DNA of 64,000 nucleotides, from the NCBI GenBank assembly GCA_902588745.1, contig CACIQI010000005.1, positions 14,070-78,069 of the forward strand, read 5' to 3'. The position numbers and the translations under genes were made by a program. Shown in pieces: positions 6,120 to 50,048 of this stretch. Each line of letters opens with the position of its first letter. The stretch's first letter is position 1. The notes under the pieces are model-generated. The model had not been told where the DNA came from. It worked only from the letters and a program-made list of their open reading frames with translations, and searched no databases. The stretch is from an uncultured Alphaproteobacteria bacterium (GTDB lineage Bacteria > Pseudomonadota > Alphaproteobacteria > HIMB59 > GCA-002718135).

Positions 6120-7148
6120 TTAACTTGGACAGTTTAGATATGTGCTATCAAAAGTTTCTAAAATTTCTAGAGAAATTCCTCTCATAGCCATAACGTATGT
6201 ATCAACATCGCTAATATCAACAAATACAGTACCTGAATCAATAAATTGATCAGTTTGTGCAGTTGATTTCCAAGGTGCATCAGCTTTGAACTCACAACCT
6301 TGTCTAACTTTGTCCATTACATATGAACCAATGTAACCTTGTCCATATGGGTTTTGAAGCATAGTTCCATGAACATAACCATCTTTAATAGCTTTTAAAA
6401 CTACTTCGTCATGATCAATACCAACCATTTTAATTCTTTTATCACCCATATTAGTTAAAGCTTGTGCTGCTACAACAGCAGGAACCCAAGCAGTAGTAAC
6501 AATACCATCTACTTCACTTCCTTGAGCCGCCATGAAAGCATTAATTTTTTCATCAGCTGGTTCATAAGCATCAATATCAGCAATAACTTGAATAATTTCT
6601 ACTCCACCACCTGCTTCTGAAACAGCTTGTTCAACAGCATTGATTCTTAGAGTTGTATTTGGATCAACTAAGAAACCAGTAAAGTGAGCAATTTTTCCTT
6701 TGCCACCTAAAGCTTTAATTAATTCTTTTGTACCAAGATAAGCTGAGTGACCAGTGTCAGTTCCAAAACAAAATTTTGCTTGAGTTGGTTGTTCAACACA
6801 TCCTGCTAAAGCAGCTGTTGGTATACCAGCATCATCTAGTTCACCTAAAATTTTATTTGTACCAACTGCATCACCAGGAAATACAAGTACTGCATTGTAA
6901 CCTTGACCAACTAAACTTTCAATTAACTCGTTTTGTTGACTTAGATCCCACTCTGCAGGAACTCTGTAATCTGCTTTTCCTAAACCAAAGTCTTCTACAG
7001 CATCTAAACCTGCTTGTTCCCACGCAGCAAAATAAGGGTGCGGGCCACCAGGGACTAGAGCTACTTTAGTAACACCATGACCACCGGCAAAAACAGGTGA
7101 TACTAGTAAAGCAAAAAAAGAAGTTAAAAATATTATAAATTTTTTCAT
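6120..7148 (-). CDS. periplasmic sugar-binding protein (type-1 periplasmic binding fold, RbsB-like)
   Basis: 342 aa. Signal peptide MKKFIIFLTSFFALLVSPVFA followed by GGH. First gene of the CUT2 operon. Acidic, low-Lys composition unlike its neighbours. Confidence 0.8.
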   Translation of the reverse strand: MKKFIIFLTSFFALLVSPVFAGGHGVTKVALVPGGPHPYFAAWEQAGLDAVEDFGLGKADYRVPAEWDLSQQNELIESLVGQGYNAVLVFPGDAVGTNKILGELDDAGIPTAALAGCVEQPTQAKFCFGTDTGHSAYLGTKELIKALGGKGKIAHFTGFLVDPNTTLRINAVEQAVSEAGGGVEIIQVIADIDAYEPADEKINAFMAAQGSEVDGIVTTAWVPAVVAAQALTNMGDKRIKMVGIDHDEVVLKAIKDGYVHGTMLQNPYGQGYIGSYVMDKVRQGCEFKADAPWKSTAQTDQFIDSGTVFVDISDVDTYVMAMRGISLEILETFDSTYLNCPS

Positions 7149-7252
7149 TATTCCTCCTTAAATTTTTTTTAATGTATTCAGATTTAGAACTTAAATCAAC
7201 AAAAATAAAATAAAGTATTTATTTATAATTATATTGATTATACTATTGTCGC

Positions 7253-8440
7253 ATGCTGTATTCATTTAGATGGTTTGGTCATAATGATCCTTCAAAATTA
7301 GATCAAATTCGACAGATAGGTGTTGAAGGAATCGTATCATCACTAGCACAAATAAAATATGGTGAAAAATGGTCTGCATTCGAAATCAAGAAAAGGAAGA
7401 AATTTATTGAAAGTTTCAAAATTAATAACAATAAAAATTTAACTTGGAGTGTTGTTGAAAGTCTTCCTGTCCACAATGACATAAAAAAAAGGTCAGGGAG
7501 ATATAAATATTACATAGATCAATACAAAGAGTCATTGATAAATTTAGGAAAGAATAAGATTAAAAATATTTGTTACAATTTTATGCCATTGATTGATTGG
7601 GTGAGAACAGATTTAAATCATCAACTACCAAATGGAGCATTTGCTTTAAAATATAATCATCTTCATGTCTGTGCATTTGAAAATTTTATTTTAAAATCTA
7701 AAACAGCAAAAAAAAGGTATTCACCCAAAGAAATCCATACTTCAAAAAAAATATTAAAAAAAATGAATTCTAGTGATTTAAAAAAACTTAAAATGTCTTT
7801 ACTTGGAGGGTTAGCTGCAAACGATAGAAAGTATACAATTAAAGATTTAAATTATGAGATTGATCAATTTGCAGAATTAAATCATAGTGATTTACAAAAT
7901 AATTTAAAAGATTTTATAGAAGAAATTTATCCAATCATAAAAAAATATAATATTCATTACAATATTCATCCAGATGATCCTCCATATAATGTTTATGGAT
8001 TACCAAGAATTGTTTCTAATGAGAAAGATATTAATTTTATTGTGAATATAAAAAAAGATACAAATGTAGGTTTAACTTTTTGTACAGGATCCCTTGGTGT
8101 TAATAAAAAAAATAACTTAGTCAATATAATTAAAAAATATGGTTCTTATATAAATTTTATTCATTTAAGAAATATAAGACACATTCCAAAATCTCTCGAT
8201 TTTTATGAAGATGACCACCTTAATGGAAGCCTGGACATGGTGTCTATTGTCAAAGCAATATTAAAAGAAGAAAATAAAAGGAAAAAAAGTAATCATCCTA
8301 TTAAACAAATTCCTATGAGGCCTGATCATGGGCATACAATACTTCATGACCAATTTAATTCAGTAATACCTGGATATTCATTATTAGGCAGAATGAAAGG
8401 GCTAGATCAGCTTAAAGGTGTAATAAAAGCTATAAATTAA
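7253..8440 (+). CDS. uxuA: mannonate dehydratase
   Basis: 395 aa, the length of UxuA. The N-terminus FRWFGHNDPSKLDQIRQIGVEGIVSSL parallels E. coli UxuA (WRWYGPNDPVSL...). Confidence 0.85.
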   Translation: MLYSFRWFGHNDPSKLDQIRQIGVEGIVSSLAQIKYGEKWSAFEIKKRKKFIESFKINNNKNLTWSVVESLPVHNDIKKRSGRYKYYIDQYKESLINLGKNKIKNICYNFMPLIDWVRTDLNHQLPNGAFALKYNHLHVCAFENFILKSKTAKKRYSPKEIHTSKKILKKMNSSDLKKLKMSLLGGLAANDRKYTIKDLNYEIDQFAELNHSDLQNNLKDFIEEIYPIIKKYNIHYNIHPDDPPYNVYGLPRIVSNEKDINFIVNIKKDTNVGLTFCTGSLGVNKKNNLVNIIKKYGSYINFIHLRNIRHIPKSLDFYEDDHLNGSLDMVSIVKAILKEENKRKKSNHPIKQIPMRPDHGHTILHDQFNSVIPGYSLLGRMKGLDQLKGVIKAIN

Positions 8441-9479
8441 TTTTTACCTTATATTTATTTGCTAAAAACAAAAAATCAGTTTTTAATTCCTTATCTATTG
8501 GAATACCTGTTTTTAATCTTTTATTAGAAGTAATTTTTTCTTTTTCGCCTGGATATAAAATTGGATTATTATTTTTTTTTGGTTTTTGTTTTTTTAGATC
8601 ACTCATATAGTTTTTCATACCTTTAAAATATTGTTTTTTTGTAGTGAAAGCATTTAATGAAATGGCGATTAAGAAATGTCCTAACTTTCTTGGTGTACTA
8701 AAATCTGGTCCAATCATTGATAATAAACGGTATCCATGAGCCATACCAATAAGAGGTCCACACATTATTTCTACAGAAGAAGATAATCCAAAACCTTTAT
8801 ACCCATATTCTTTACCTCCAAGTGGAGCCAAAGAAACAGCGTCATAAGGGTTAGTCGTGTAGTTTCCGGATTTATCAAGTGCAATCTCAGATTTTAATTT
8901 AGTAGAATTTGCTCTGGCTCTCATAACTTTATTCCATGCTATCGAAGTTGAAGAAAAATCTGCATGTAAAAAGTCTTTATTACCTATTGGTGCTGTAAAA
9001 GAATAAGGATTAGTCCCGTGAAAAGGTTTCTTACCATTATACGCTATTGCAAAAGCATCTGAGTGTGTAAATGAAAAACCAACACAGTCGTTTTGTGCAA
9101 TATCCATAGAATATACACCTGCAGCACCATAGTGTGAGGAGTTTATTATGCCAATTGAAGCAATGCCATTCTTCTTTGCCATAGATGATACTATTGCTGA
9201 TGCCTTTAAAGCTGCTACATGCCCTAAGCCATCATCAGCATCATAGACAGCTACACCTCTATTTTTTTTTATAAGCTTCATTTTAGGTTTTGCTTTTATT
9301 CTTCCGTTTTCAATACATTTTACATAATGAGAAAATAATCTAATACCATGACTGTCCACGCCTCTAAGAGAAGAATCTAAAAGTGATTTAATAAGTAAAT
9401 TTCTATCCTTTTTTGGAACAGATAGTTTTGATAAAATGCTATCAAAAAATTCATTTATTTTGTTGGGTAAAATTTTCAT
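8430..9479 (-). CDS. Ldh_2 family (malate/L-lactate/sulfolactate/2,3-diketogulonate-type) NAD(P)-dependent oxidoreductase
   Basis: 349 aa with LRGVDSHGIRLFSHY and SHYGAAG blocks typical of Ldh_2. The 3' end overlaps the uxuA 3' end by 11 nt (convergent). Confidence 0.75.
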   Translation of the reverse strand: MKILPNKINEFFDSILSKLSVPKKDRNLLIKSLLDSSLRGVDSHGIRLFSHYVKCIENGRIKAKPKMKLIKKNRGVAVYDADDGLGHVAALKASAIVSSMAKKNGIASIGIINSSHYGAAGVYSMDIAQNDCVGFSFTHSDAFAIAYNGKKPFHGTNPYSFTAPIGNKDFLHADFSSTSIAWNKVMRARANSTKLKSEIALDKSGNYTTNPYDAVSLAPLGGKEYGYKGFGLSSSVEIMCGPLIGMAHGYRLLSMIGPDFSTPRKLGHFLIAISLNAFTTKKQYFKGMKNYMSDLKKQKPKKNNNPILYPGEKEKITSNKRLKTGIPIDKELKTDFLFLANKYKVKINL

Positions 9480-9480
9480 C

Positions 9481-18960: not shown

Positions 18961-20024
18961 TACTTCATACCTGTACTTGCTATTCCTGTTGTTATAAATT
19001 TTTGTAAGTAAGCAAATATAATTGCTATAGGTAATAAAGTTACCATAGTCATTGATAATACATAATTCCACTGACTAGTAAGTTCTCCGTGAAATGCGTT
19101 TAATCCAATTTGCAATGTATAAACTTCACTTTTTGATAAAACTATTAAAGGCCATAAGAAATCATTCCACCTCCACATTATGGAAAAAATTGCTAAAACT
19201 GCAATCGCAGGTATAGATAAAGGTAGGACAACTCGCCAATAAATTGCCCATTCACTTGCGTGATCCATTCTTGCTGCTTCTATAAGCTCTCTAGGCAATG
19301 TAAGCATATATTGACGAAGTAAAAAAACTCCTGTTGGTGTTGCAGCACCTGGAAGAATTACGCCCCATAATGAATTTATCATTCCAAAGTTTGCAACAAC
19401 ATAAAAAACTGGTACCAAAATTATCGTTAATGGAATTAATAATGTACCTATAACAAAAACAAGTGCAAAATTTTTCCCTCTAAACTCATATATAGAAAGT
19501 GCATATGCTGCCATTGAATTTATTATTAACGTTATTATTGTTGCTACAACAGTAATGAAAGTTGAGTTTTTGAAATAAAGTAAGAAATCATACTTTCTTA
19601 AAGGATCAACATAGTTTTGCCACTGAATTTTAAATTCTCTAATTTTTTCTCTTTTATCAATGGGTACTTTTACTGTTTCTCCTGGGTTTAGAGGATCAAC
19701 CATTTTAGCATTAATTCCAATTCTTTTAATTTGTGCTAACTGCTTTACTGACCCATCTTCTTGTGTCACATTAAAAATTGGTAAGGGTTTATCGTATCCT
19801 TCAACATCAACTTGAATTTGAGAAAGTGGCAAAATTGTTGGAGGATATTCTTGTATACCTGCTAATGTCTTTAATGAAGATAATCCTAACCACACAACAG
19901 GACCAAACATTAAAAGAACACCTAAAAATAAATAAAAATAAGAAAAATAATCTGTCCAATGATATTTATTTTTATATCTTTTTTTTGTAGCAATTTTTAT
20001 TATTCTTGAAGTTGTTTCAGACAT
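18960..20024 (-). CDS. CUT1 sugar ABC permease (MalG-like) with an enlarged periplasmic loop of about 100 aa
   Basis: 354 aa with the EAA-type loop REL.EAARMDHAS.W.I...V.LP. Confidence 0.85.
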   Translation of the reverse strand: MSETTSRIIKIATKKRYKNKYHWTDYFSYFYLFLGVLLMFGPVVWLGLSSLKTLAGIQEYPPTILPLSQIQVDVEGYDKPLPIFNVTQEDGSVKQLAQIKRIGINAKMVDPLNPGETVKVPIDKREKIREFKIQWQNYVDPLRKYDFLLYFKNSTFITVVATIITLIINSMAAYALSIYEFRGKNFALVFVIGTLLIPLTIILVPVFYVVANFGMINSLWGVILPGAATPTGVFLLRQYMLTLPRELIEAARMDHASEWAIYWRVVLPLSIPAIAVLAIFSIMWRWNDFLWPLIVLSKSEVYTLQIGLNAFHGELTSQWNYVLSMTMVTLLPIAIIFAYLQKFITTGIASTGMK

Positions 20025-20025
20025 A

Positions 20026-21057
20026 TTAGATTTCTTGATGTTTACTTTCTTTATTTCGACTGAAATATAATTGCATAAGTGTTAAAAATAAAAGTACCAC
20101 ACCGAGAACCATAGATGCGGCGGCTGCAAGACCAAAATTTTGAACAGATCCAGATGAAGCAAATCCTGTGGTAAAAATATATTGAACAATCAATGATGTA
20201 GATGTTCCAGGCCCCCCACCAGTTAAAACATATATTTCATCAAATGTTTGAACACCTTTTATTGAGGCAAGAATAAATACAACTAATAAATTTGGCATTA
20301 GAAGAGGTAGAGTTATTCGAAAGAAAATTCTTTCTCGGCTAGTTCCATCCATTTCGGCTGCCTCATATAAATTTGGAGGTATTGCTTGAAGACCTGCTAA
20401 TACAATCAGAGTGTAAAAACCCATATGGGCCCATATTGATACAAAGATTACAGATGCCATAGCCCATGATGGATCCGTTAAAAATGATACTTTGTCTCCA
20501 CCATAAGACTCAATTATTGCATTGAAAGCTCCATTTTTTAGCAGTATCCATTGCCAAATCAAACCAACAACAACTGGTGACAATAAAACAGGGAAAAAAA
20601 ATACCGATCTAAAAAAGCCTCTGCCAATAATTTTCTTATTTAATATCACGGCAGTCAAAACTGAAAAGAAAATCATTAAGCCAACTTGAAAAACAACAAA
20701 AAATATAGTGTTATAAACTCCTCTCCAAAAAAAATCTTCTGTACATGTATTTGGGTTTAAATAACTCTCACAATCAAATAACTGATCATATTGTTTTGTT
20801 GTAGGAAGTTCTCTCTCAGCAAATAACAGTTCGTCACCAGATGATAATGAAAAGAAAAAGTTTGCACCAAGAGGGATTATTACAAATAATCCAAAAAAAA
20901 TTAAATTTGGAAGCAAAAAAATATATGGCATATTTCTTACACCAATAATTTTTTGAATTGGCCACATGATTAAATCAATAGCATGCATTAAAAATGCAAA
21001 GGGAATGTTTAAAATTCTAAGGAAAAAAATTTTTGTTTGATTTCTAATATTTTCCAT
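20026..21057 (-). CDS. CUT1 sugar ABC permease (MalF/UgpA-like)
   Basis: 343 aa with the EAA loop LYEAAEMDGTSRERIFFRITLPLL. Confidence 0.85.
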   Translation of the reverse strand: MENIRNQTKIFFLRILNIPFAFLMHAIDLIMWPIQKIIGVRNMPYIFLLPNLIFFGLFVIIPLGANFFFSLSSGDELLFAERELPTTKQYDQLFDCESYLNPNTCTEDFFWRGVYNTIFFVVFQVGLMIFFSVLTAVILNKKIIGRGFFRSVFFFPVLLSPVVVGLIWQWILLKNGAFNAIIESYGGDKVSFLTDPSWAMASVIFVSIWAHMGFYTLIVLAGLQAIPPNLYEAAEMDGTSRERIFFRITLPLLMPNLLVVFILASIKGVQTFDEIYVLTGGGPGTSTSLIVQYIFTTGFASSGSVQNFGLAAAASMVLGVVLLFLTLMQLYFSRNKESKHQEI

Positions 21058-21075
21058 TAAATGATTTCGAAAAAA

Positions 21076-21096
21076 AGCTGCTCAAAATGAGCAGCT
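21076..21096 (-). terminator. hairpin plus T tract between the binding-protein gene and the first permease gene
   Basis: The minus strand reads AGCTGCTCA-TTT-TGAGCAGCT (9-bp stem) followed by TTTTTT, about 15 nt before the permease ATG (21057). Confidence 0.65.
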
Positions 21097-21122
21097 TTAT
21101 ATTATTATTATTTTGGATGTAA

Positions 21123-22403
21123 TTATCCGCCGTATTTTTCTTTAAGTTGTTTTTCAACATCTTCATCCATACGCGTCCAAGCTTCTTCCATTGTCATTTC
21201 ACCAACAATAGCTTGTCCTAATCTTGAGATAATTGCGTTAAACATTATACGGTTGTCAACGTGTGCCTGAAGATCAAAAGCGACTTGATCAATAGTTGGC
21301 ACTGCGCCAGCAAAAGTGTTTAATGCATGTTTTGCGTTTGGATCATCAGTTTGATAGTCAACTTGTAGATCTAAGTGTCCAGGGATAGCAAGAACTTGAC
21401 CAATAAAACTACTTAGTTGTTCTTTACTAGAAAGATAATCCATTACCTTTCCAACAGCTGGATTAGCATTGAATGCTAATAGTGCATTTCCACCTGGCAT
21501 TCCAGTACATGCAGCAGGACCACATGGAGCTGGTACAGCCCACCAATCAAAATCATCTCCTACTTCATTTGCAAATCTTCCAATTTGCCATGAACCACTC
21601 ATCATGAAAACTACCTCAGCAGCATTCCACCAATCATTTGGAGCATGATATTTAGATCCTGAAACTGATCCCCAAAGATCTTTACTCATTGTACCTGCTT
21701 GGTGCCAGTCATAAAGCATTTGAGTCATAGCTTTTAATCCATCATCAACTAATTTTGGATCACCATTTGAATCAAAATATTTCGCACCCATAGAAATCGC
21801 AGGGCCTGATACACGGTGACCTGATCTATCCCAAGCCATTGGTATAGGAGTACCTGTTTTTTCTGCTACTTCAATTGAAACTGCTGCCCATTCTTCCCAA
21901 GTTGCACCAGGGCCTAATAGATCTACACCAGCTTGTTCAAATAGAGTTTTATTTACATATGGACCAGTAACGGTCATTGTAGAATGGAAACCATGAATTG
22001 AAGTTGTATCTCCAGGCTTACGATACCAATTTAAAAAAGGACCGAAGCTTTTTTCATAGTAACTTGGATCAGCTACATAAGGCGTAATATCAGCATAATA
22101 TTTGTTTAATCCACCAAGATCAGTAACACGAGCAATGTCAGGACCTTCACCAGCAGCAAGCTGGATAGGTAGAGTGTTCATTATTGCATCATATGGTACA
22201 ATATCTAAAATTACATTTATATCTGGATTAGCTGCATTAAACTCATCAATTTGTGCTGCAATTGGCACATTTTCTTTGTCTCCATCTCCATACCACATAA
22301 TACGTACATCTGTGGCAGCAAAAGAAACTGCAGAAATTAAAGTTAATGAGAATGAAACTAAAGCTACAGATATTGCTTTTAAAATAAACTTAAAGTTCAT
22401 CAT
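21123..22403 (-). CDS. extracellular solute-binding protein family 1 (CUT1 sugar-binding protein)
   Basis: 426 aa. Signal peptide ...LISAVSFA followed by ATD. Operon-first position. Confidence 0.85.
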   Translation of the reverse strand: MMNFKFILKAISVALVSFSLTLISAVSFAATDVRIMWYGDGDKENVPIAAQIDEFNAANPDINVILDIVPYDAIMNTLPIQLAAGEGPDIARVTDLGGLNKYYADITPYVADPSYYEKSFGPFLNWYRKPGDTTSIHGFHSTMTVTGPYVNKTLFEQAGVDLLGPGATWEEWAAVSIEVAEKTGTPIPMAWDRSGHRVSGPAISMGAKYFDSNGDPKLVDDGLKAMTQMLYDWHQAGTMSKDLWGSVSGSKYHAPNDWWNAAEVVFMMSGSWQIGRFANEVGDDFDWWAVPAPCGPAACTGMPGGNALLAFNANPAVGKVMDYLSSKEQLSSFIGQVLAIPGHLDLQVDYQTDDPNAKHALNTFAGAVPTIDQVAFDLQAHVDNRIMFNAIISRLGQAIVGEMTMEEAWTRMDEDVEKQLKEKYGG

Positions 22404-35129: not shown

Positions 35130-36132
35130 CCATAACTCCTTTTCTTATTCTTGGATCAATTATAGCTAAAATAATATCCGTTATAAAATTTACAAAAACA
35201 ATTGTTGCTGTTAGAAGAAAAATAATTGCACCTGCTAATTGCTGATCATTTGATCTTGCTAAAGCTTCAATCAACAATGCCCCGGCTTCTGTAAGAATTA
35301 AAATTAAGGCCACAATCGGCAATGCACTAAATATACGATTAAGGTCGAAACCTATAGAATTGATTACTGGACCTAAAGAATGTTTTGCTGGATATCTCCA
35401 CAACAAACTCATTCCTGATATTCCTCTAGCCCTTGCAGCCATTACATATAGTTTATCATTTTCATCTAGCATTAGTGCTCTAACTGTTTGAAGAGCAAAG
35501 GCAGTTGCATTCCAACCTAAAACAAATATTGGAAGCCAAGCTCTACTTAAAAAATCAAATAGTTTTGCTGATGACCAGGGTTCGTTTTCATATTCTTGAG
35601 AAAATAAACCTGTCATCGTATCTCCATAGTAAACAGTCATAAAAAGCATAATACAGAGTGCTACTAAAAAATTAGGAAGTGCTATTCCAAGATAACTAAT
35701 AAATTTAAGCGTATTATCTAATGATGCATATTTTGTCGTGGCCGATATGATCCCAACTGGTATGGCAATTAAATATGAAAATATTAGTGCAACCAAACAT
35801 ATTGTTAAAGATAAAGTAAATCTTCCACTTAATAATTCATTAATATTCATTCTCAGAATACAACTATCACCAAAATCTCCATTAAAAACTATATTAGAAA
35901 CCCATTTGCCATATCTATACAAAAAAGGTTTATCTAAACCTAAACGAATTTTTTCTTTTTCTATGTCTTCATAAGTTATTTGTGATCCTTGTGTATTTTT
36001 AAATGCTAGATATCTTTCAGCACAAGTTCCAGGAACTAATTCCATTAATGAAAAAACAATAAAGCATACAAGAAGCAAAGTTATAATTGCAAGTCCTGCT
36101 CTTGTGAGAGTAAATTGTATAAAATTAATCAT
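35119..36132 (-). CDS. Opp/Dpp-type ABC permease (OppB/DppB-like)
   Basis: 337 aa, polytopic, with the family-typical C-terminus ...DIILAIIDPRIR. Confidence 0.85.
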   Translation of the reverse strand: MINFIQFTLTRAGLAIITLLLVCFIVFSLMELVPGTCAERYLAFKNTQGSQITYEDIEKEKIRLGLDKPFLYRYGKWVSNIVFNGDFGDSCILRMNINELLSGRFTLSLTICLVALIFSYLIAIPVGIISATTKYASLDNTLKFISYLGIALPNFLVALCIMLFMTVYYGDTMTGLFSQEYENEPWSSAKLFDFLSRAWLPIFVLGWNATAFALQTVRALMLDENDKLYVMAARARGISGMSLLWRYPAKHSLGPVINSIGFDLNRIFSALPIVALILILTEAGALLIEALARSNDQQLAGAIIFLLTATIVFVNFITDIILAIIDPRIRKGVMGGG

Positions 36133-36170
36133 ATAAATAATTAGGAGACAAGAATAATTAAAAAAAGAAA

Positions 36171-36193
36171 AGCGGCAATATATAATTGCCGCT
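36171..36193 (-). terminator. hairpin plus T tract between the binding-protein gene and the first permease gene (also T-flanked on the plus strand)
   Basis: AGCGGCAAT-loop(5)-ATTGCCGCT (9-bp stem) flanked by an A-run and a T-run. On the minus strand it is followed by TTTCTTTTTT upstream of the permease ATG (36132). Confidence 0.7.
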
Positions 36194-36217
36194 TTTTTTA
36201 TTATTTATTGAGTTAAA

Positions 36218-38272
36218 TTACTCGTCTAACCACCATTGAGTAGCTAGGTATGGGTATGTTCTATAATACTCATACGAAGTAGTTTTAAACTGCGTAAAGT
36301 TTTTCAAAGCATTTCTATGATAAGTTGGGAAAGGTGCTTTCACCGTACCAATCAATAGACTTTGCTCTGTTAACATTGTTGCAATTTTTTCACCCCACTC
36401 ATTAGACTCAGCAGTACCAAGAGCGTAAGATTGGAATTTATCAATTCCATCACTTAAGTCATATACCCACTGAGGAGGTTTAGTACCTTCGTCACCATTA
36501 CTATCAATGTATGCTGCCCAATCTAAACCTTGTGTATGGTTAAAGTAGTTACCAAACGGAGGTTTAAATGTTTCTGGGTTACCAGCAACAATTGCTAATG
36601 GTTGACCTTTATCCCAAACATGAACGTCAAGTTGGTTAGCAGCTTGCGAACCACGATATTCATCTGGAGTTACCTCTTTAAAAGTAGTTTTTACTCCTAC
36701 TTCATTGAAGTATCTTGCAACAAGTTCAACTTCAACACCACCAATACCTTGAGTAGCATAGTCAATGTTAATAGCTAGAGCATCACCATTTGGTAATTCT
36801 CTAAATCCATCACCATCAACGTCTTTTAATCCTACTTCATCAAGCAGAGCATTAGCTCCATCTGGATCGTATTGAGTCATATGCATTTTTATACTTTCAG
36901 GAACGAAGTCAGGTGCAGGAGAAAATCCTACAAACTGCTCAACTTTACCTAAACCGTAATATGCAACTTCGTTGATCTCGTCTCTATTCATTGCAATTGA
37001 CATTGCTTGACGGAAACGAATATCCCCATAGACTTTACGTTTTTCAGGATCAGGATGTGTTACATTAAAGCTAAATAATGCAGCACCACAACCTGGATTG
37101 ATTTGAACTTGATATCCACCAGACTCAGCACCATCAAGTAATTGAGGAGCGGACTCTAATTGAACAGACTGTGATTTATAATCAACTTCACCATTAACAA
37201 GTTTTAACAATCTTATTTCATTTTCATTGATGTATCTTTCATTTTGATAATCAATGTATGGTAATTGATTCCCAGCTGTATCAACTTGGAAAAAGTATGG
37301 GTTAGCTGCATAGACTCTACCTTCAGTAGTGTCTTCAATAGTCATGTAAGCTTCTAAAGAAGGATAAGCTGCATAAGGTAATCCAGCAACTAGATCTGGT
37401 TTAGCTAGTAAAGGAGTTGGAGTATCAGTCCAACCTGAGTTACCATAATATGCTGCTAAAGCATCATAACCATCTGCAAATCCTAATGCCTGAGCATTTG
37501 CATCAGCATTTGAATCAATTTCCGGATGGAATTGTTCTAGGAAATGTGAAGGCATGAAGAACTGGTTATATGACCATGCAATAGTTGCAGTTAAACCAGG
37601 GAACGGAGATGGTAAGTTAAATCTTACTGTTTGATCATCAATTACATCAACAGTCATTGGCTCACCACCAACTAAAAGATATGGATATGGTTTTTCACGA
37701 ATCTTTGGATTCATCATCAAATCTTCGTACCAAAACTCAACATCTCTAGCCACAAAAGGTTCACCATTTGACCACTTGTGACCTTTACGTAACATGAATG
37801 TTAAAGTAGTAAAATCATCATTCCACTCATAATCTTTAGCAACGTTTGGAACAATTGTAGTTAAGTCATCAGCAAAACGTAATAAGTTAACGTGTCTTGT
37901 AGATAACATATCAGAAGTTCCAGCTTCAGTTGCGTTCGATAAGAAGTTTATTGTATTTCCATATTTACCAATAGACTCATATGGTACTACAACAAGCGGT
38001 TCATCAGGTAATCTATCCTCAACTGGAGGTAGACTTCCTGGGTTACCTTGTATTGTAGCGTTTATGCTAGCAATATTTGGATTATCTGAAAACTTCATAG
38101 TACAGCCAGCTGCACTTTCATATTCTGATAACTCATATTGCTGAGGATATTTTCCGCCTGTCTGTGCATCGTTCATTGTTGTACCTACGCAATGACCACC
38201 TGCAAAAGAGCTTCCACTCCAGACAAAGGTTGCGGAAGAAAATACTAACGCTATGAATAGTTTTTTTAACAT
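36218..38272 (-). CDS. extracellular solute-binding protein family 5 (Opp/Dpp-type), unusually large
   Basis: 684 aa. Signal peptide ...VWSGSSFA followed by GGHC. Operon-first position. Acidic, low-Lys composition. Confidence 0.85.
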   Translation of the reverse strand: MLKKLFIALVFSSATFVWSGSSFAGGHCVGTTMNDAQTGGKYPQQYELSEYESAAGCTMKFSDNPNIASINATIQGNPGSLPPVEDRLPDEPLVVVPYESIGKYGNTINFLSNATEAGTSDMLSTRHVNLLRFADDLTTIVPNVAKDYEWNDDFTTLTFMLRKGHKWSNGEPFVARDVEFWYEDLMMNPKIREKPYPYLLVGGEPMTVDVIDDQTVRFNLPSPFPGLTATIAWSYNQFFMPSHFLEQFHPEIDSNADANAQALGFADGYDALAAYYGNSGWTDTPTPLLAKPDLVAGLPYAAYPSLEAYMTIEDTTEGRVYAANPYFFQVDTAGNQLPYIDYQNERYINENEIRLLKLVNGEVDYKSQSVQLESAPQLLDGAESGGYQVQINPGCGAALFSFNVTHPDPEKRKVYGDIRFRQAMSIAMNRDEINEVAYYGLGKVEQFVGFSPAPDFVPESIKMHMTQYDPDGANALLDEVGLKDVDGDGFRELPNGDALAINIDYATQGIGGVEVELVARYFNEVGVKTTFKEVTPDEYRGSQAANQLDVHVWDKGQPLAIVAGNPETFKPPFGNYFNHTQGLDWAAYIDSNGDEGTKPPQWVYDLSDGIDKFQSYALGTAESNEWGEKIATMLTEQSLLIGTVKAPFPTYHRNALKNFTQFKTTSYEYYRTYPYLATQWWLDE

Positions 38273-38423: not shown

Positions 38424-39959
38424 ATGGAAAAATCTAAAAAATCTGTTCTTTTTATATGTGCTGATCAATGGCGTTTTGACTGCTTTAGCTTCCTAAATCA
38501 TCCATATGCTCTAACACCAAACTTAGACAAACTTGCTTCACAAAGTATAATTTTTAAATCACATTTTGCTGGAATTGTCCCTTGTGGTCCATCTAGAACT
38601 ACTATGCTGACTGGTTTATATCCATTTATACATCGTTCAGTATATAATGGTGCTCCTCTTGATAAAAGATTTACAAATATCGCTAAAGAAGTTCGTAAAC
38701 TAAATTATAATCCAAGACTTTACGGATACACTGATACCTCTTGGGATCCGAGATATTTGGATCCAGAAGATAAAAAAAATTTTACATATGAATCACCAAT
38801 GGAAGGGTTTGATGATGGTTGTGTTTTACCAGGAGGAAAACCGGAGCCTTGGGCTAACCATCTTAATCAAAATGGTTTTGAAATTAATAAAGCAGAAGAT
38901 TTGTACAAAGGAAGAAAGCCTAAAGATGATCAAGCGTATATTTATGAACCATATTATATTCCAACTGAATTTTCAGACACCGCATTTTTAGCAGACAAAG
39001 TTGTTAACGACTTAAAAAAGGTTAAAGATTCATTTTTTATGCATGTATCTTTTTTAAAACCACACCCACCCTTTCATGTAGCTGATCCATGGTTTAGTAA
39101 ATTTAATCCAGATAGTATTAACTTATCTAAAAATAATATTTCACTGAAAGAATTATCAAAAAAACATCCACTACTTAAAGAGTTATGTAAAAAATTTTTA
39201 CTTAAAGAAAATTTCTCTGAAATTAATTATGATCTTTTAAAAGATCAAGATATCAAAAATATTATGAGTGTCTATTTTGCTATGTGCGCAGAAGTTGATT
39301 TTAATATTGGTAAAATTTTGATTGCTCTTAAAGAAACAGGGCAAGAAGAAAATACAATGATAATTTTTACTAGTGATCATGGAGAAATGTTAAATGAAAA
39401 TAATTTATGGGGGAAATTAGGTTGGTGGGACTCTTCTTATAGAATTCCATTATTTATTTATCTGCCTCAAAACAATCCAAAAGAAATTAACCTTTTAACA
39501 GAATCTGTAGATGTTGCTCCTACAATTTTAGAATGGCTTGGTGGTGACATTCCCATTGATTGGAATGGTCAATCACTGATGCACAATATCAATCATAAAT
39601 ACAAAAAATCACCTAATAAAGAATATGTTGTTTTTGATTATGATTTTAGAGAAAGTACTTCATTTGTTAAAGATAAAAAATTAGCACCCGAACAATGTAA
39701 TCTATCGGTCATTAGAAATAATAAATGGAAATATGTTCATTTTCCTTCATTGCCATGTTTATTATTTGATTTAGAAAAAGATCCTGAGGAAATAAATGAT
39801 CTATCAGACTTAAGAGAATTTCAAGATATAAAACATGAACTAGTATCAAAATTGTTAAGTCACCGCATGATTCATCAGGAGCGACAATTATCAAACACTA
39901 AACTTTCCAGTTCAGGTGTTAATACAAATTCTGGACCATTTAGCAGAAAAATGGAATAA
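38424..39959 (+). CDS. sulfatase family protein, Cys-type (formylglycine motif C-G-P-S-R)
   Basis: 511 aa. N-terminus VLFICADQWR, then PCGPSRTTMLTG (CxPxR), then FTSDHGEM later. No signal peptide is evident. Confidence 0.85.
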   Translation: MEKSKKSVLFICADQWRFDCFSFLNHPYALTPNLDKLASQSIIFKSHFAGIVPCGPSRTTMLTGLYPFIHRSVYNGAPLDKRFTNIAKEVRKLNYNPRLYGYTDTSWDPRYLDPEDKKNFTYESPMEGFDDGCVLPGGKPEPWANHLNQNGFEINKAEDLYKGRKPKDDQAYIYEPYYIPTEFSDTAFLADKVVNDLKKVKDSFFMHVSFLKPHPPFHVADPWFSKFNPDSINLSKNNISLKELSKKHPLLKELCKKFLLKENFSEINYDLLKDQDIKNIMSVYFAMCAEVDFNIGKILIALKETGQEENTMIIFTSDHGEMLNENNLWGKLGWWDSSYRIPLFIYLPQNNPKEINLLTESVDVAPTILEWLGGDIPIDWNGQSLMHNINHKYKKSPNKEYVVFDYDFRESTSFVKDKKLAPEQCNLSVIRNNKWKYVHFPSLPCLLFDLEKDPEEINDLSDLREFQDIKHELVSKLLSHRMIHQERQLSNTKLSSSGVNTNSGPFSRKME

Positions 39960-39966
39960 TAAAAAT

Positions 39967-41016
39967 ATGTTAACGACTGTTATAGGCGCCTATCCAAAAC
40001 CAAGCTACTTAAAAATAACTGATTGGTTTAATGCTTCTGGTGGTACAGATACAGAATATCCAACTAAATTTTACGAAGATGAAATAAAAAAAATGGGCGA
40101 TAATGTTGAAGAGTTATTTAATAAAGCTAGCAAAGAAATAATTAGTGATCAGGAAGAATGTGGTATTGATATCCTAACCGATGGTGAAGTTAGAAGAGAA
40201 AATTATATTCACTATCATTGTAGATATTTAGAAGGAATTGATTTTGAGAATCTCACAGAAAAAGTTGCTAGGACAGGGAATTATAAATGCTGGTTACCAA
40301 CAATAACTTCAAAAGTTAAAGCAAAAGAATCTTTTTTGGTTGAAGAGTGGAAAAAAAATCAGAGTTTAACGAATAAAGATTTAAAAATTACTATACCTGG
40401 ACCAATGACTATAACAGACACCATAGCAAATACATTTTATGATTCAGATGAACATATGGGTGAAGACTTAGCTGATGCTATTAATGTAGAAATTAAAAGA
40501 TTGGTTGATGCAGGATGTAAATACATTCAAGTCGATGAACCGTTGTTTGCTAGAAAACCAGAAAATGCTCTTAATTTTGGAATTAAAAACCTAGAAAGAT
40601 GTTTTAAGGATATTAATAATCAAAGTATAGAAAAAATTACACATATTTGTTGTGGCTATCCTGATAAATTAGATGCAGTAGATTATCCAAAAGCGCCTTT
40701 AGATTCATACAGTAAAATTAGTAAAGCTTTAGATGAGTCAATTATAGACACAGTTTCTATTGAAGATGCTCATCGATATAATGATTTAAATTTTTTAAAA
40801 GATTTTAAACAAACAAAAGTTATTTTTGGTTTAGTAAAAATAGCAAGCTCTCAAGTTGAGACTAAAGAAGAAATTGTCTCAAGAATAAATGATGCATTAA
40901 AGTTTATTGATACTGAACAATTAATTGTTGCTCCTGATTGCGGCCTTGGTCACTTACCTCGAGATTTAGCAAAAATAAAATTAAAAATAATGGTGGAAGC
41001 TGCTGATAGTTTCTAA
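39967..41016 (+). CDS. core-only cobalamin-independent methionine synthase-like protein (MetE C-terminal domain family)
   Basis: I place the start at MLTTVIGAYPKPSYLK (ATG 39967-39969), just after the sulfatase stop. Contains DGEVRRENY, HICCGYP and APDCGLG zinc-ligand-type blocks. 349 aa. Confidence 0.75.
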   Translation: MLTTVIGAYPKPSYLKITDWFNASGGTDTEYPTKFYEDEIKKMGDNVEELFNKASKEIISDQEECGIDILTDGEVRRENYIHYHCRYLEGIDFENLTEKVARTGNYKCWLPTITSKVKAKESFLVEEWKKNQSLTNKDLKITIPGPMTITDTIANTFYDSDEHMGEDLADAINVEIKRLVDAGCKYIQVDEPLFARKPENALNFGIKNLERCFKDINNQSIEKITHICCGYPDKLDAVDYPKAPLDSYSKISKALDESIIDTVSIEDAHRYNDLNFLKDFKQTKVIFGLVKIASSQVETKEEIVSRINDALKFIDTEQLIVAPDCGLGHLPRDLAKIKLKIMVEAADSF

Positions 41017-46142: not shown

Positions 46143-46155
46143 TTGATCTGATTAT

Positions 46156-46815: not shown

Positions 46816-46834
46816 AAGATTAGAAATTTTATTA

Positions 46835-47716
46835 TTAACCTTTTACTGCTCCAGCAGTTAAACCACTTATTAATTGTCTTTGGAAAAACATGATTATCAT
46901 AAAAAGTGGTGCAGTTGCTGAAACAACACTTGAGACTGCCCACATATAATTTCCACTATGTTCAATTGTGCCCAAATAAGCATTAATTTTAGGAACCATA
47001 GTATAATTCTGCTGATTTAAAAGAAGTGAAGTAACTGTAAAATCATTATAGGCTAACATCATACTGAATAACCCTGCTGTAACAACTCCAGGCCACATAA
47101 CAGGCATTATAACAAAGCGAAACGCTTGAAAATATGAACAGCCATCAATTAGCGCACTTTCATCTAACTCTTTAGGAACTGTTTTAAAGAAGGAATAAAG
47201 TAACCATAATGTAAAGGGTTGATTGATTGCAACTAAAACAATTATGGTAGTTGGAAGTATGCCCCAAACGTTCAATTGGAAGAAAGGAAATAGATAACCA
47301 GAAACTAATGTAATGTGTGGCATCGCTCTAAAAATCAATGCAGCTATTAAGATCCAAAAAGTATATTTATATGTCGATCTAGACAAGGCATAAGCACCTA
47401 ATGTTCCTAAAAATAAAGAGATTGTAACAACTGAAACAGTAATAATAATTGTATTCATTGTTGCTTTCCAAAATTCACCTTCAGTCCAAGACTCTACATA
47501 TGCCTTAACTGTAGAAGTATCTCCTGTTTCTATCAAAGTATTAACTCCTGTGACTGCAAACATCCAATCAGCTCTTGAGAAAAAGTCGGCTTTTACTTTA
47601 AATGATCCCCAAAAAGTCCATATAAAAGGAAACACGGAAATAATTAACCAAGCAAGAATAAAAAAACTATTTATTAAAATTAGTTGTTTTGAGTATCTGT
47701 TAATTTTTGATTCCAT
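46835..47716 (-). CDS. CUT1 sugar ABC permease (MalG-like)
   Basis: 293 aa with the EAA loop LDESALIDGCSYFQAFRFVIMP. Confidence 0.85.
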   Translation of the reverse strand: MESKINRYSKQLILINSFFILAWLIISVFPFIWTFWGSFKVKADFFSRADWMFAVTGVNTLIETGDTSTVKAYVESWTEGEFWKATMNTIIITVSVVTISLFLGTLGAYALSRSTYKYTFWILIAALIFRAMPHITLVSGYLFPFFQLNVWGILPTTIIVLVAINQPFTLWLLYSFFKTVPKELDESALIDGCSYFQAFRFVIMPVMWPGVVTAGLFSMMLAYNDFTVTSLLLNQQNYTMVPKINAYLGTIEHSGNYMWAVSSVVSATAPLFMIIMFFQRQLISGLTAGAVKG

Positions 47717-47717
47717 A

Positions 47718-48746
47718 TTATCTTTCCGTTCTAAATTCTCTCCATGTTCTTATAAGTACTGGTGTTAATAGAATTGCTACACCAATAATAGTTAACATAG
47801 ATGTTGCTCCTGCAGATCCAAATAACATTTTGTTTTCACTTCTTAAGTCATTATAAATCATCCAAGAAAGTGATTGAGCAACTCCTTCAGCAGCGAACCC
47901 GATTATTGGCTCAAGAACCCTAAAATTATCCATTAGACAAATTAATATAATAAATGTTGCTACCGGATAAAGATGTGGAATAACAATGTGTCTGACTCGT
48001 TCATATCTTGAGGCGCCATCTATGATCGCTGCTTCAATTGGATCTTGAGGAACAGTTTGTAATGCAGCATAAAAGACAACAAAAGCAAATGGTGTATTGT
48101 GCCAAATCCCATAAATAATCAGAGTAATCCAAGTCAATTGACTTGAGGACTTTAGTGATAGGTTTGGATCATCAAATAAGAATTGAATAAATGAACCTAA
48201 TATTCCCTTAGCATCTATCATCCAAAATAAAACGAGAGATCCAATCAATGGTGTTACAATCATAGGCAGTATAACACCAAAAATGGTTGGGCCTTTTAAA
48301 CTTTTTGTAATTGTATTTACACTTAAAGCAACGATGAAACCTAAAACTACAACTGGTGGTGTAACGGCAAAACAAAATGTAAGTGTAAATAAAAGTGCTT
48401 TGTAAAAAGGTAAATTTAGTAAGATATCCGTAAACTCAGCTATGGATGAGGAATTAGTCCAAGCCTCTTTAATTTCATCAAAAGCTAAATGATTTCTATC
48501 GCCGTATGTTCCTAAACCATTAAATCTTCCAAGAGGCTGTTCCTCTTGTAATTTTGTAGTGGCCTCAATATCTACTTTAGTTTCAGTTTTACATCCAAAT
48601 GGATCGCATTTTTCTACTTCCATTAAAATTTGTTCAGGTTCAATATGTAGAGATTGAAAAAAACTAGAAATAATTGGAAGTCCAATAAATAATAGCATTG
48701 CCAATCCACTTGGAAAGAAGAACCAAAAAAATGTTCTGTGGGGCAT
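47718..48746 (-). CDS. CUT1 sugar ABC permease (MalF-like)
   Basis: 342 aa with the EAA loop IEAAIIDGASRYERVRHIVIPHL. Confidence 0.85.
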   Translation of the reverse strand: MPHRTFFWFFFPSGLAMLLFIGLPIISSFFQSLHIEPEQILMEVEKCDPFGCKTETKVDIEATTKLQEEQPLGRFNGLGTYGDRNHLAFDEIKEAWTNSSSIAEFTDILLNLPFYKALLFTLTFCFAVTPPVVVLGFIVALSVNTITKSLKGPTIFGVILPMIVTPLIGSLVLFWMIDAKGILGSFIQFLFDDPNLSLKSSSQLTWITLIIYGIWHNTPFAFVVFYAALQTVPQDPIEAAIIDGASRYERVRHIVIPHLYPVATFIILICLMDNFRVLEPIIGFAAEGVAQSLSWMIYNDLRSENKMLFGSAGATSMLTIIGVAILLTPVLIRTWREFRTER

Positions 48747-48766
48747 CTATTTCTTACTAAAAAAAA

Positions 48767-48790
48767 AGTGGAACATAATAATGTTCCACT
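48767..48790 (-). terminator. hairpin plus T8 tract between the binding-protein gene and the first permease gene
   Basis: The minus strand reads AGTGGAACAT-TATT-ATGTTCCACT (10-bp stem) followed by TTTTTTTT, 12 nt before the permease ATG (48746). Confidence 0.7.
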
Positions 48791-48812
48791 TTATCATAAA
48801 TATTTATACGGT

Positions 48813-50048
48813 TTATAGAAATCCTTGCTCAGTAGCTTTTGCTACATAAGCAGCTTCTACATCCGCTAATGCTTTTTCAGCAGACTCATTTCCTTGAAGG
48901 AATTCAACAAGTTCTGTACTCAAAGCACCATGTAATAGACTCATGTATGGTAAGCTTGGGTAAGGTGTTGCACCTCTATTAGCAGCGTCAACAACTGGCC
49001 CTGCTGTATCTCCAGGCGAATAACCATCAATCAACCAAATTGTTGCATTTGGATTAGCATTTGCCATTTCTGTTGAAGTTGCTGCACCTAAAAGAGCTCT
49101 AAAAGATGCTTCTGCATTTTCATCAGAAGTGTTTGTTGCAATTCCAAATCCATCCCACCATAGAGTTGTTGCTGGTTTACTTCCACCACCTACAGATGGA
49201 GAAGGAGCTAATCTAGTATCAGCTTTAATTGCTTGATCACCTTCGTCATCTAACAATGAAGCTGCACCTGAGTTCCAGATATGCATTAATGCTACATTAC
49301 CAGACTCCCATTCTTCTTTAACTGCATTTGTATCTTGAGTTAAGAAATCAGGGTTACTTACTTCGGTTAATCTTTTAAGCATATTAAGAGCAGCTACACC
49401 TTTAGCGTTATTTACACTAACTTCAGCTGTTCCAGCTTTAAAGAAATCACCTCCATGACCTAGGTACATGTTTACAAACTCTTGACCTAAGTTCCATCCA
49501 GATTTGAAAGCACCAGCATATGGGTTAGCCATTTTACCAGAAGCTTTAATTTTTTCTGCAGCCGCAATTACCTCTTCATATGTTGAAGGAACTGCGATAC
49601 CTAAATCATTAAGAATACTTTCTCTGTACCAAAGATGTTGAGCATTAGCCATAAATGCTACTGCATAAATTTTACCATCAATCACGATTTTTTGATTGTC
49701 TTGTAATGCACTTCCGTATTTAGCAACTAAATCATCAAGTGGACGAATTAAGTTATCATTCATTAAAGTTGTAATTGAACCATTAGTAACAAGTTTAGCA
49801 GAGAATTCAGCTGGGTTAGCTGAAAGTGCTGCAACTTGTAATTTATTATGATCAACAGAATGTGTTACAGAAAAATCTGCATCAGGTCCTGCACAACTTT
49901 TTACTTCATCCATGAAAATTCTGTATGTTGTAAATTCGTTTGCTAGAATCTTTATTGATCCATCTGTTACTCCACAAGGTGAGTGCCCACCGGCATATGC
50001 ACTTGTGCTAACAAATGTGAACAATAGAGCTATTAATAGTTTTTTCAT
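48813..50048 (-). CDS. extracellular solute-binding protein family 1 (CUT1)
   Basis: 411 aa. Signal peptide ...FVSTSAYA followed by GGHSPC. Operon-first position. Confidence 0.85.
   Translation of the reverse strand: MKKLLIALLFTFVSTSAYAGGHSPCGVTDGSIKILANEFTTYRIFMDEVKSCAGPDADFSVTHSVDHNKLQVAALSANPAEFSAKLVTNGSITTLMNDNLIRPLDDLVAKYGSALQDNQKIVIDGKIYAVAFMANAQHLWYRESILNDLGIAVPSTYEEVIAAAEKIKASGKMANPYAGAFKSGWNLGQEFVNMYLGHGGDFFKAGTAEVSVNNAKGVAALNMLKRLTEVSNPDFLTQDTNAVKEEWESGNVALMHIWNSGAASLLDDEGDQAIKADTRLAPSPSVGGGSKPATTLWWDGFGIATNTSDENAEASFRALLGAATSTEMANANPNATIWLIDGYSPGDTAGPVVDAANRGATPYPSLPYMSLLHGALSTELVEFLQGNESAEKALADVEAAYVAKATEQGFL

What the first reader, a model, noticed from the sequence alone, without database searches (positions are those of the whole stretch)
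7077..49991. Three unrelated periplasmic binding proteins all have a predicted mature N-terminus Gly-Gly-His (ATCUN-type Cu(II)/Ni(II) motif)
The binding proteins of three different ABC families end their signal peptides with an AxA-type cleavage site followed immediately by GGH. These are the type-1 sugar binding protein, ...SPVFA|GGHGV (GGH codons 7077-7085, minus strand); the family-5 protein, ...GSSFA|GGHCV (38192-38200); and the family-1 protein, ...TSAYA|GGHSPC (49983-49991). The fourth binding protein (21123-22403) has ...VSFA|ATD instead. A free N-terminus with His at position 3 is the ATCUN motif, and Gly-Gly-His is the textbook Cu(II)-binding tripeptide. Recurrence in non-homologous proteins implies convergence, or selection on the junction itself. 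Binding proteins are expected to be very abundant in the periplasm of such cells. This could therefore represent periplasmic Cu/Ni buffering or redox protection. Alternatively it could be a signal-peptidase or sorting determinant.
Basis: partly seen in the sequence, partly recalled or inferred. Interest (0 to 1): 0.65.

Follow-up and report, generated by a model that had tools for sequence, protein, structure and literature searches.

The report
Gly-Gly-His tips on marine binding proteins
In an abundant group of tiny ocean bacteria, many unrelated nutrient-capturing proteins have independently gained the same three-residue start (Gly-Gly-His), a classic copper/nickel-gripping motif. These cells lack the usual copper-handling genes, so the tips may be an undescribed way of managing trace metals.

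Summary
All three binding proteins have a canonical A-x-A signal-peptidase site directly followed by GGH, at the stated coordinates. The genome holds a fourth case (a Tat-exported TRAP DctP protein, AIA|GGH) and a fifth with SKA|AGH. Chance expects about 0.004 GGH tips among 119 predicted exported proteins (P about 1e-11). A complete sister-family genome repeats the pattern (five G-[GS]-H tips, P about 7e-11). Across the order (HIMB59/AEGEAN-169 by record titles) the tip occurs on at least 12 binding-protein groups from seven Pfam families, up to seven per genome. It was never seen on a non-binding exported protein.

In four families His-3 is invariant while positions 1 and 2 vary (G/D/A/S/E; G/S/N/A). 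Orthologues in other bacteria lack it. The DNA around the sites is unrelated. This indicates convergent, protein-level selection for NH2-X-small-His, which fits an ATCUN Cu(II)/Ni(II) site.

The order lacks P-type ATPases (CopA), multicopper oxidases and Sco1; the window's genome carries cytochrome oxidase and urease motifs. Metal binding and the true N-termini remain untested. The trait is also labile. I found no description in the searchable literature.

The parts
6120..7148 (-). SBP1, a sugar-type ABC binding protein (PF13407), 342 aa. Signal peptide at 7086-7148, predicted cut VFA|GGH.
   Evidence: Orthologues in the same genus are 93-100% identical. Among 115 homologues of 64% identity or more, only this lineage has X-X-H; the others read A|GSDTKV, A|ADPTRV and similar.
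7077..7085 (-). Gly-Gly-His codons of SBP1 (GGT GGT CAT), predicted mature residues 1-3.
36218..38272 (-). SBP2, a family-5 (peptide/nickel-type) ABC binding protein (PF00496), 684 aa. Signal peptide at 38201-38272, predicted cut SFA|GGHC.
   Evidence: Homologues read GGHC, DGHC or GAHC, against GDC, ASC, GAC or AAC without His.
38192..38200 (-). Gly-Gly-His codons of SBP2 (GGT GGT CAT).
48813..50048 (-). SBP3, a family-1 ABC binding protein (PF01547), 411 aa. Signal peptide at 49992-50048, predicted cut AYA|GGHSPC.
   Evidence: Homologues read GGH, GSH, GNH, DGH or GAH followed by SPCG. More distant ones read A|GCG or A|ACN and lack the xHSP insert.
49983..49991 (-). Gly-Gly-His codons of SBP3 (GGT GGG CAC).
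21123..22403 (-). SBP4, a family-1 ABC binding protein (PF01547) without the motif (SFA|ATD). It serves as an internal contrast.

Best explanation
The Gly-Gly-His (more generally NH2-X-small-His) tip is a selected add-on. Binding proteins of the HIMB59/AEGEAN-169 order have gained it repeatedly and independently.

Proposed mechanism, all inferred:
- Signal peptidase I cuts after the canonical A-x-A (or A-x-S) site. This leaves a free alpha-amine two residues before the histidine, on a short flexible stretch ahead of the first beta-strand.
- That geometry is the ATCUN site. The amine, two backbone amides and the His imidazole bind Cu(II) or Ni(II) in a square plane, very tightly and almost redox-silently.
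- Binding proteins are the bulk periplasmic proteins of such cells. A few tagged species would therefore give the periplasm some thousands of high-affinity sites. By my rough estimate from general knowledge, that is comparable to a cell's whole copper quota.
- These sites would act as a distributed Cu(II)/Ni(II) sink or reservoir. The lineage lacks CopA-type efflux, multicopper oxidase and Sco1; the window's genome needs Cu for cytochrome oxidase and Ni for urease.

Shown here: the motif, its position at the predicted cut site, its convergence and selection, its restriction to binding proteins, and the missing copper genes. Inferred: the actual N-terminus, metal binding, and the role.
For: 1. 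Enrichment. Four GGH tips against 0.004 expected in this genome. In the complete sister-family genome G037, four G-[GS]-H tips against 0.006 expected (P about 7e-11), plus a Tat TRAP protein the predictor missed.
2. The DNA pattern for A-G-G-H occurs 2-10 times per genome in 41 of 41 genomes of the genus, against about 0 for the reversed control. In G003, seven of ten hits follow a signal peptide.
3. All carriers examined are binding proteins, from PF13407, PF00496, PF01547/PF13416, PF03480, PF12974, PF13458 and PF00497.
4. His-3 is invariant while positions 1-2 vary. SBP3: GGH, GSH, GNH, DGH, GAH. SBP2: GGH, DGH, GAH. TRAP orthologues at 60-100% identity: GGH, AGH, SGH, EGH. Proline was never seen at position 2.
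5. The state is derived. Other Alphaproteobacteria read A|GSDTKV (SBP1), A|GTLDDVK (the AapJ type, 22 of 22 other loci read, all different families; only G037 has A|GSHGSTLD), or lack it entirely in TRAP paralogues and outgroups.
6. The codons differ and the flanking DNA is unrelated (11-19 of 48 bases identical), so this is not gene conversion.
7. Position frequencies from 158 other predicted sites favour A-x-A|G-x-H over ...G-x|H in 10 of 10 cases. The odds are about 2- to 85-fold using positions -2, +1 and +2 only.
8. P-type ATPases are absent from 51 of 52 genomes of the order and present in 14 of 14 controls. Multicopper oxidase is absent from 51 of 51. Sco1 is absent from 50 of 51. CuA and CuB oxidase motifs and a urease alpha motif are present in G000.
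9. PMC4771312 reports that its SAR11 genome set, which includes HIMB59, lacks copA entirely.
Against: - No N-terminus has been measured and no metal binding has been measured.
- Only about 4% of predicted exported proteins in each surveyed genome carry the tip, and only binding proteins do.
- The trait is labile. Parsimony gives 6-7 state changes within the top 110-118 homologues of SBP2 and SBP3, and some 95%-identical relatives read A|GDC without His.
- ATCUN chemistry does not require the strong preference for Gly or another small residue at positions 1-2.
- In G037, His is not specifically enriched at +3 relative to +1..+5.
- One variant (A|GDGH) puts His at position 4.
- ATCUN-bound Cu(II) exchanges slowly, which suits a sink better than a delivery role.
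- The AlphaFold model was too poor to say more than 'coil, low confidence' for the tip.
Confidence: 0.5

Rival explanations
1. The G-x-H tip is selected for a reason unrelated to metals. Possibilities include a mark recognised by an unknown periplasmic factor (retention or tethering of binding proteins, covalent linkage through the N-terminal glycine amine, or protection from aminopeptidases and proteases), or a tuning of export or processing specific to binding proteins.
For: The strong preference for Gly or a small residue at positions 1-2 goes beyond what ATCUN needs. The motif is restricted to binding proteins. In some Alphaproteobacteria, N-termini of envelope proteins are known to be linked to peptidoglycan (my own knowledge, not tested here).
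Against: No partner enzyme was identified. Position 1 can be Asp, Glu, Ala or Ser, which argues against a requirement for an N-terminal glycine nucleophile. The one invariant residue is His at exactly position 3, and that is the metal-binding determinant. Sec-exported and Tat-exported proteins both carry the tip.
Confidence: 0.2
2. Signal peptidase cuts two residues later (A-G-G|H), so the mature protein starts with His. That would form a histidine-brace-like or other His-1 site rather than ATCUN.
For: A at -3 with G, S or A at -1 is an allowed signal-peptidase pattern. It fits most variants: AGG|H, AGS|H, ADG|H, AGA|H.
Against: Every case has a textbook A/S/V-x-A site, with a bulky residue at -2, immediately upstream. 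Position frequencies from 158 other sites favour that upstream cut in 10 of 10 cases. The GNH variant would put Asn at -1, and the EGH and DGH variants would put an acidic residue at -2. Homologues without His are predicted to be cut after the same Ala.
Confidence: 0.08
3. There is no function. The recurrence would reflect a short mutational path (GGT duplication, GAT to CAT) plus relaxed constraint on the linker after the signal peptide, amplified by shared ancestry or transfer among close relatives.
For: The trait is gained and lost among close relatives. Only a minority of binding proteins carry it.
Against: Expectation is 0.004-0.006 per genome against 4-5 observed, in two genomes of different families. 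There are at least 12 independent protein groups with unrelated flanking DNA. His-3 is invariant across 60-100% identity in the TRAP orthologues. The tip was absent from nine other small AT-rich alphaproteobacterial genomes scanned for the A-G-G-H pattern.
Confidence: 0.1

Closest known systems
ATCUN motif (NH2-Xaa-Xaa-His): serum albumin DAH, histatin-5 DSH, neuromedin C GNH, and the model tripeptide Gly-Gly-His (my own knowledge)
   Same: A free amine created by signal-peptide removal, His at position 3, and no Pro at position 2. GGH itself is the textbook Cu(II)/Ni(II) ligand.
   Different: The known examples are mostly eukaryotic secreted proteins and peptides. Here the tip is grafted convergently onto many bacterial transport binding proteins in one lineage, and binding has not been measured.
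Dedicated periplasmic copper proteins (CusF, CopC, CueP, PcoE/SilE) working with CopA, CueO and Cus (my own knowledge; PcoB disordered His/Met region, PMC12509749)
   Same: Both handle or sequester copper in the periplasm.
   Different: Those are dedicated proteins in regulated operons, mostly using Met/His/Cys sites. Here there would be no dedicated protein. The order lacks P-type ATPases, multicopper oxidase and Sco1, and the site would ride on nutrient-binding proteins.
His-rich N-terminal metal-capturing extensions on periplasmic proteins, such as the Haemophilus Cu,Zn-SOD N-terminal His-rich stretch and ZinT (my own knowledge)
   Same: A short accessory metal-binding segment is appended to the mature N-terminus of a periplasmic protein whose main fold does something else.
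   Different: Those tails serve the protein's own metal cofactor or a zinc-uptake pathway. Here the carriers bind sugars, amino acids, phosphonates or carboxylates, and the tip is a minimal three-residue site.
DUF4331 exported proteins with a conserved Ser-Ser-His tip
   Same: A predicted bacterial mature N-terminus of the X-X-His type that is conserved across a family.
   Different: That is one family with an ancestral tip, found next to Ni/Co transporters. Here there are many unrelated families with recently and repeatedly gained tips.

Membership tests
ATCUN motif | His at position 3 of the mature chain | tested here: met
   This holds given the predicted cut. GGH occurs in four proteins of this genome and AGH in a fifth. 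His-3 is invariant in four families' variants.
ATCUN motif | Free alpha-amino group on residue 1, meaning cleavage exactly two residues before His and no blocking | tested here: inconclusive
   A canonical A-x-A/S site immediately precedes the tip in all cases. Self-trained position frequencies favour it in 10 of 10 cases. No SignalP run and no proteomic evidence was available.
ATCUN motif | Residues 2 and 3 contribute backbone amide nitrogens, so no Pro at position 2 | tested here: met
   Position 2 is G, S, N or A in every variant seen.
ATCUN motif | Measured 1:1 square-planar Cu(II)/Ni(II) binding | not testable with these tools
   This needs spectroscopy or ITC on the mature protein or peptide.
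Histidine brace (N-terminal His-1, as in LPMO or CopC) | His is residue 1 of the mature protein | tested here: not met
   The predicted cut leaves two residues before His. The alternative cut is disfavoured in 10 of 10 cases. This is prediction only.
Bacterial lipoprotein (lipobox) | [LVI][ASTVI][GAS]-Cys at the cut site | tested here: not met
   In SBP2 the Cys follows His (GGHC). In SBP3 it is six residues in. SBP1 and most other carriers have no nearby Cys.
Double-glycine leader peptides (C39 peptidase substrates) | A non-hydrophobic leader ending in GG, processed by a dedicated ABC/C39 exporter | tested here: not met
   The leaders are ordinary Sec signal peptides (a basic n-region, a hydrophobic core, then A-x-A) or Tat signal peptides (RREFLK).
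ABC/TRAP solute-binding proteins | Match to a binding-protein Pfam family above the curated cut-off | tested here: met
   PF13407, PF00496, PF01547, PF13416, PF03480, PF12974, PF13458 and PF00497.

The most novel reading that the evidence does not exclude
Streamlined surface-ocean bacteria that lack the copper-homeostasis genes tested here would use their mass-expressed nutrient-binding proteins as a distributed ATCUN copper/nickel buffer. Tagged proteins and their N-terminal fragments would be released by lysis, vesicles or proteolysis. They would then contribute to the unidentified strong (L1-class) copper-binding ligands that control copper speciation in seawater.
Probability: 0.12. Interest if true: 0.9.

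Novelty: new variant of a known kind. Interest (0 to 1): 0.72.

Why it matters
HIMB59/AEGEAN-169 and its relatives are abundant bacterioplankton. If the tips bind metal, this would be a new and very economical solution to trace-metal handling. It would cost three residues on proteins the cell already makes in bulk, in place of pumps, oxidases and chaperones that these genomes lack.

It would bear on copper toxicity and nickel supply in oligotrophic surface waters. It would also offer a molecular candidate for the long-sought strong copper ligands of seawater.

The hypothesis is directly testable with a handful of recombinant proteins and with existing isolates (HIMB59, LSUCC0245).

There is also a practical warning. 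Recombinant constructs that trim or tag these N-termini would hide the site.

Tried and rejected
- Gene conversion or a shared DNA cassette. Rejected: the codons differ and the flanks are unrelated.
- A DNA-level motif. Some orthologues read GCTGGTGG, the E. coli Chi sequence. Rejected: synonymous variants are common.
- Lipobox and double-glycine leader. Neither is met.
- A general signal-peptidase preference. Rejected: about 95% of predicted exported proteins, and all non-binding ones examined, lack the motif.
- Generic enrichment of His at +3. This is weak: 6 of 119 in G000, and in G037 no higher at +3 than at +1..+5. The signal is specifically G/x-small-His.
- AlphaFold2 of SBP3 with 26 sequences. 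Mean pLDDT was 66.6 and the tip was coil below 50, so it is uninformative. No fold search was run.
- A PDB sequence search with one carrier found only ordinary sugar-binding homologues, with alignments starting after the tip.
- Literature. No paper in the held library combines ATCUN with binding-protein terms or with SAR11/Pelagibacter. The supplement of the SAR11 binding-protein paper is not held.
- Scope outside the order.
  - Nine small AT-rich alphaproteobacterial genomes from seven other families had no signal-peptide A|GGH.
  - One further family of 0.9-1.6-Mb genomes (f105) has sporadic cases at about 0-1 per genome: two kinds of DctP-like protein and one protein of unknown family. I suspect f105 is Pelagibacteraceae but could not verify this.
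  - SAR116-labelled records also carry the TRAP orthologue with the tip.
Full report
**Observation.**
- SBP1 (6120-7148, minus strand) reads MKKFIIFLTSFFALLVSPVFA|GGHGVTKV.
- SBP2 (36218-38272, minus) reads MLKKLFIALVFSSATFVWSGSSFA|GGHCVGTT.
- SBP3 (48813-50048, minus) reads MKKLLIALLFTFVSTSAYA|GGHSPCGV.
- The fourth binding protein (21123-22403, minus) reads ...SAVSFA|ATDVR.

Pfam assigns the first three to PF13407, PF00496 and PF01547, and the fourth to PF01547. The window lies in a 1.5-Mb, 29% G+C genome.

**Chance.** I called genes on the whole genome (1,488 ORFs, 96% coding). I predicted exported soluble proteins with a rule that uses only the n-region charge, the hydrophobic core and the -3/-1 residues. 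This gave 119 candidates.
- GGH occupies +1..+3 in four of them, against 0.004-0.005 expected (P about 1e-11).
- No other tripeptide recurs more than twice.
- The fourth case lies outside the window. It is a 370-aa Tat-signal TRAP DctP protein on contig C32 (MKKNLKRREFLKK...AAPAIA|GGHQEWIICS).
- A fifth protein, a 425-aa family-1 binding protein on contig C1, reads SKA|AGH. Its orthologues in two sister genomes read SKA|GGH.
- The only other in-frame A-G-G-H sites in the genome are inside cytoplasmic KatG and an aminotransferase.

**Breadth.**
- The degenerate DNA pattern for A-G-G-H occurs 2-10 times per genome in 41 of 41 genomes of the genus. The reversed control pattern occurs about 0 times.
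- Reading the contexts showed further signal-peptide|GGH proteins in sister genomes. These are two more family-1 groups, a family-8 protein, a phosphonate-type protein and a family-5 paralogue, with up to seven per genome in G003.
- The sister family has others. They include a LivJ-like protein (AFA|GGHAVKIATVGP) and a 474-aa family-1/8 protein.
- I fetched the complete 1,410,127-bp sister-family genome G037 and repeated the survey. Four of 142 predicted exported proteins start G-[GS]-H, against 0.006 expected (P about 7e-11). A Tat TRAP protein (AIS|GGHMEWIAC) was missed by my predictor.
- Every carrier examined is a solute-binding protein, from seven Pfam families: PF13407, PF00496, PF01547/PF13416, PF03480, PF12974, PF13458 and PF00497. 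No non-binding exported protein with the G-x-H tip was seen.

**Taxonomy.** Record titles of the closest loci are GORG single-cell genomes (AG-...), with HIMB59-labelled MAGs at about 61-62% identity. This places the order as HIMB59/AEGEAN-169, also called 'SAR11 subclade V' (PMC10308909).

**Selection and convergence.**
- SBP3 homologues: the tip reads GGH, GSH, GNH, DGH or GAH, always followed by SPCG. More distant members read A|GCG or A|ACN and lack the insert.
- SBP2 homologues: GGHC, DGHC or GAHC, against GDC, ASC, GAC or AAC.
- TRAP orthologues across both families of the order (60-100% identity): A|GGH, A|AGH, A|SGH, S|GGH and S|EGH. The 42%-identical paralogues (A|ADRIEV) and homologues from other phyla lack it.
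- SBP1: only this lineage among 115 homologues of 64% identity or more has X-X-H. The rest read A|GSDTKV, A|ADPTRV and similar.
- The AapJ-type amino-acid binding protein reads A|GSHGSTLD only in G037. It reads A|GTLDDVK or close variants in G000, its genus-mate G065 and all 22 other alphaproteobacterial loci I could read, each from a different family.

So His at position 3 is the invariant. Position 1 is free (G, D, A, S, E) and position 2 is small (G, S, N, A) and never Pro. The state is derived, and it arose separately in each protein group.

The four sites in this genome use different codons, and their flanks share only 11-19 of 48 bases. This excludes gene conversion or a mobile cassette.

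The trait is also labile. Parsimony on trees built without the N-terminal region needs 7 state changes (SBP3) and 6 (SBP2) among 110-118 close homologues. Some 95%-identical SBP2 relatives read A|GDC. Together with the turnover of which binding proteins carry the tip in different genomes, this suggests selection on a bulk property of the periplasm, not on any one transporter. That last step is inference.

**Where is the cut?** All carriers have a textbook A/S/V-x-A (or A-x-S) site with a bulky -2 residue directly before the tip. The competing cut two residues later (A-G-G|H) is formally allowed. I took position frequencies from 158 other predicted sites in G000 and G037. They favour the upstream cut in 10 of 10 cases, by about 2- to 85-fold using only positions my predictor did not select on (-2, +1, +2). 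With all five positions the margin is larger. This is a prediction, not a measurement. Either cut would leave a His-containing N-terminal site.

**Mechanism proposed.** A free amine with His at position 3 and no Pro is the ATCUN Cu(II)/Ni(II) site, and GGH is its model peptide (established chemistry, my own knowledge).

The genomic background fits a metal role.
- P-type ATPases, and hence CopA, are absent from 51 of 52 genomes of the order at 85% completeness or better. They are present in all 14 control genomes.
- Multicopper oxidase is absent from 51 of 51 genomes.
- Sco1/SenC is absent from 50 of 51.
- G000 has CuA and CuB cytochrome-oxidase motifs and a urease alpha motif.
- Hogle et al. 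report that their SAR11 genome set, which includes HIMB59, lacks copA entirely (PMC4771312).

I therefore propose that the tips make abundant binding proteins double as a periplasmic Cu(II)/Ni(II) sink or reservoir. I give this about 50%. Binding, occupancy and role are all untested.

**Rivals.**
- A non-metal role of the tip, such as recognition, tethering or protease protection. This would better explain the Gly/small-residue bias, but it does not explain why His-3 is the invariant.
- The later cut, giving His-1.
- A neutral mutational origin. This is contradicted by the statistics, the independence of the gains and the conservation of His.

**Scope outside the order.**
- Nine other small AT-rich alphaproteobacterial genomes from seven families had no signal-peptide A|GGH.
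- One further family of 0.9-1.6-Mb genomes (code f105) has few A-G-G-H sites (mostly 0-2 per genome) but sporadic carriers. These are a DctP protein (VHA|GGHGGVELKFGH), a Tat-signal DctP-like protein (ATA|GGHKTLKMQAAWP) and one exported protein of unknown family. I suspect f105 is Pelagibacteraceae but could not verify it.
- Two SAR116/Puniceispirillales-labelled records carry the TRAP orthologue with the tip.

**Novelty.** Full-text searches found no paper that links ATCUN to bacterial solute-binding proteins or to SAR11/HIMB59. The motif itself is classical. What appears undescribed is its convergent, lineage-wide grafting onto transport binding proteins, in a clade that lacks the copper-homeostasis genes tested here.

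**Limits.**
- No SignalP run, no N-terminal proteomics and no metal data were available.
- The AlphaFold model was poor.
- The pattern scans only see Ala at -1 with GGH, so the counts are lower bounds.

Noticed in passing
Whole order (G000 and 51 relatives); not a window feature: No P-type ATPase of any kind (PF00122) in 51 of 52 genomes of the order, although all 14 control genomes have one. The same sample has no multicopper oxidase and almost no Sco1, while G000 (the only genome checked) has an aa3-type oxidase with CuA.
   Followed up: partly
window 6120-7148 and contig C32:502-1611 of the same genome: SBP1 and the TRAP binding protein are 99-100% identical in amino-acid sequence across many different species-level genomes of the genus. 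This suggests very strong constraint or recent gene-specific sweeps or transfer.
   Followed up: no
window 36001-38000, 48001-50000, 20001-22000: The 2-kb bins over three of the four binding-protein genes (SBP2, SBP3, SBP4) are G+C-richer (0.35-0.36) than typical neighbouring bins (0.26-0.31). Their products are Ala/Gly/Asp-rich, unlike the Lys/Asn-rich cytoplasmic neighbours.
   Followed up: no
L142 and L145 (loci): Records labelled SAR116 or Puniceispirillales carry an 83-85% identical TRAP binding protein with the same tip (SIA|GGH, AIS|AGH). This is either lateral transfer between co-occurring clades or mislabelled or misbinned genomes. A 'Flavobacteriaceae' MAG (L156) carries a 62% identical copy, which is probably misbinning.
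   Followed up: no
P0163 (homologue of window 48813-50048): One cluster of 21 member sequences reads AYA|GDGHSPCG. The one-residue insertion moves His to position 4 and would break a strict ATCUN site.
   Followed up: no
window 38424-39959 and 39916-41016: A sulfatase and a MetE-C-terminal-like protein are encoded divergently next to the family-5 binding protein SBP2. A mannonate-dehydratase-like gene (7253-8440) lies next to SBP1. The three tagged proteins therefore belong to different substrate islands.
   Followed up: no
G037 (stitched from L222-L296), genes at about 139786 and 209048 (minus strand): Two small exported proteins of unknown family (about 176 and 163 aa) are predicted to start A|DKH and A|DQH. 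Both are X-X-His, but neither is of the G-small-H type and neither is a binding protein.
   Followed up: no
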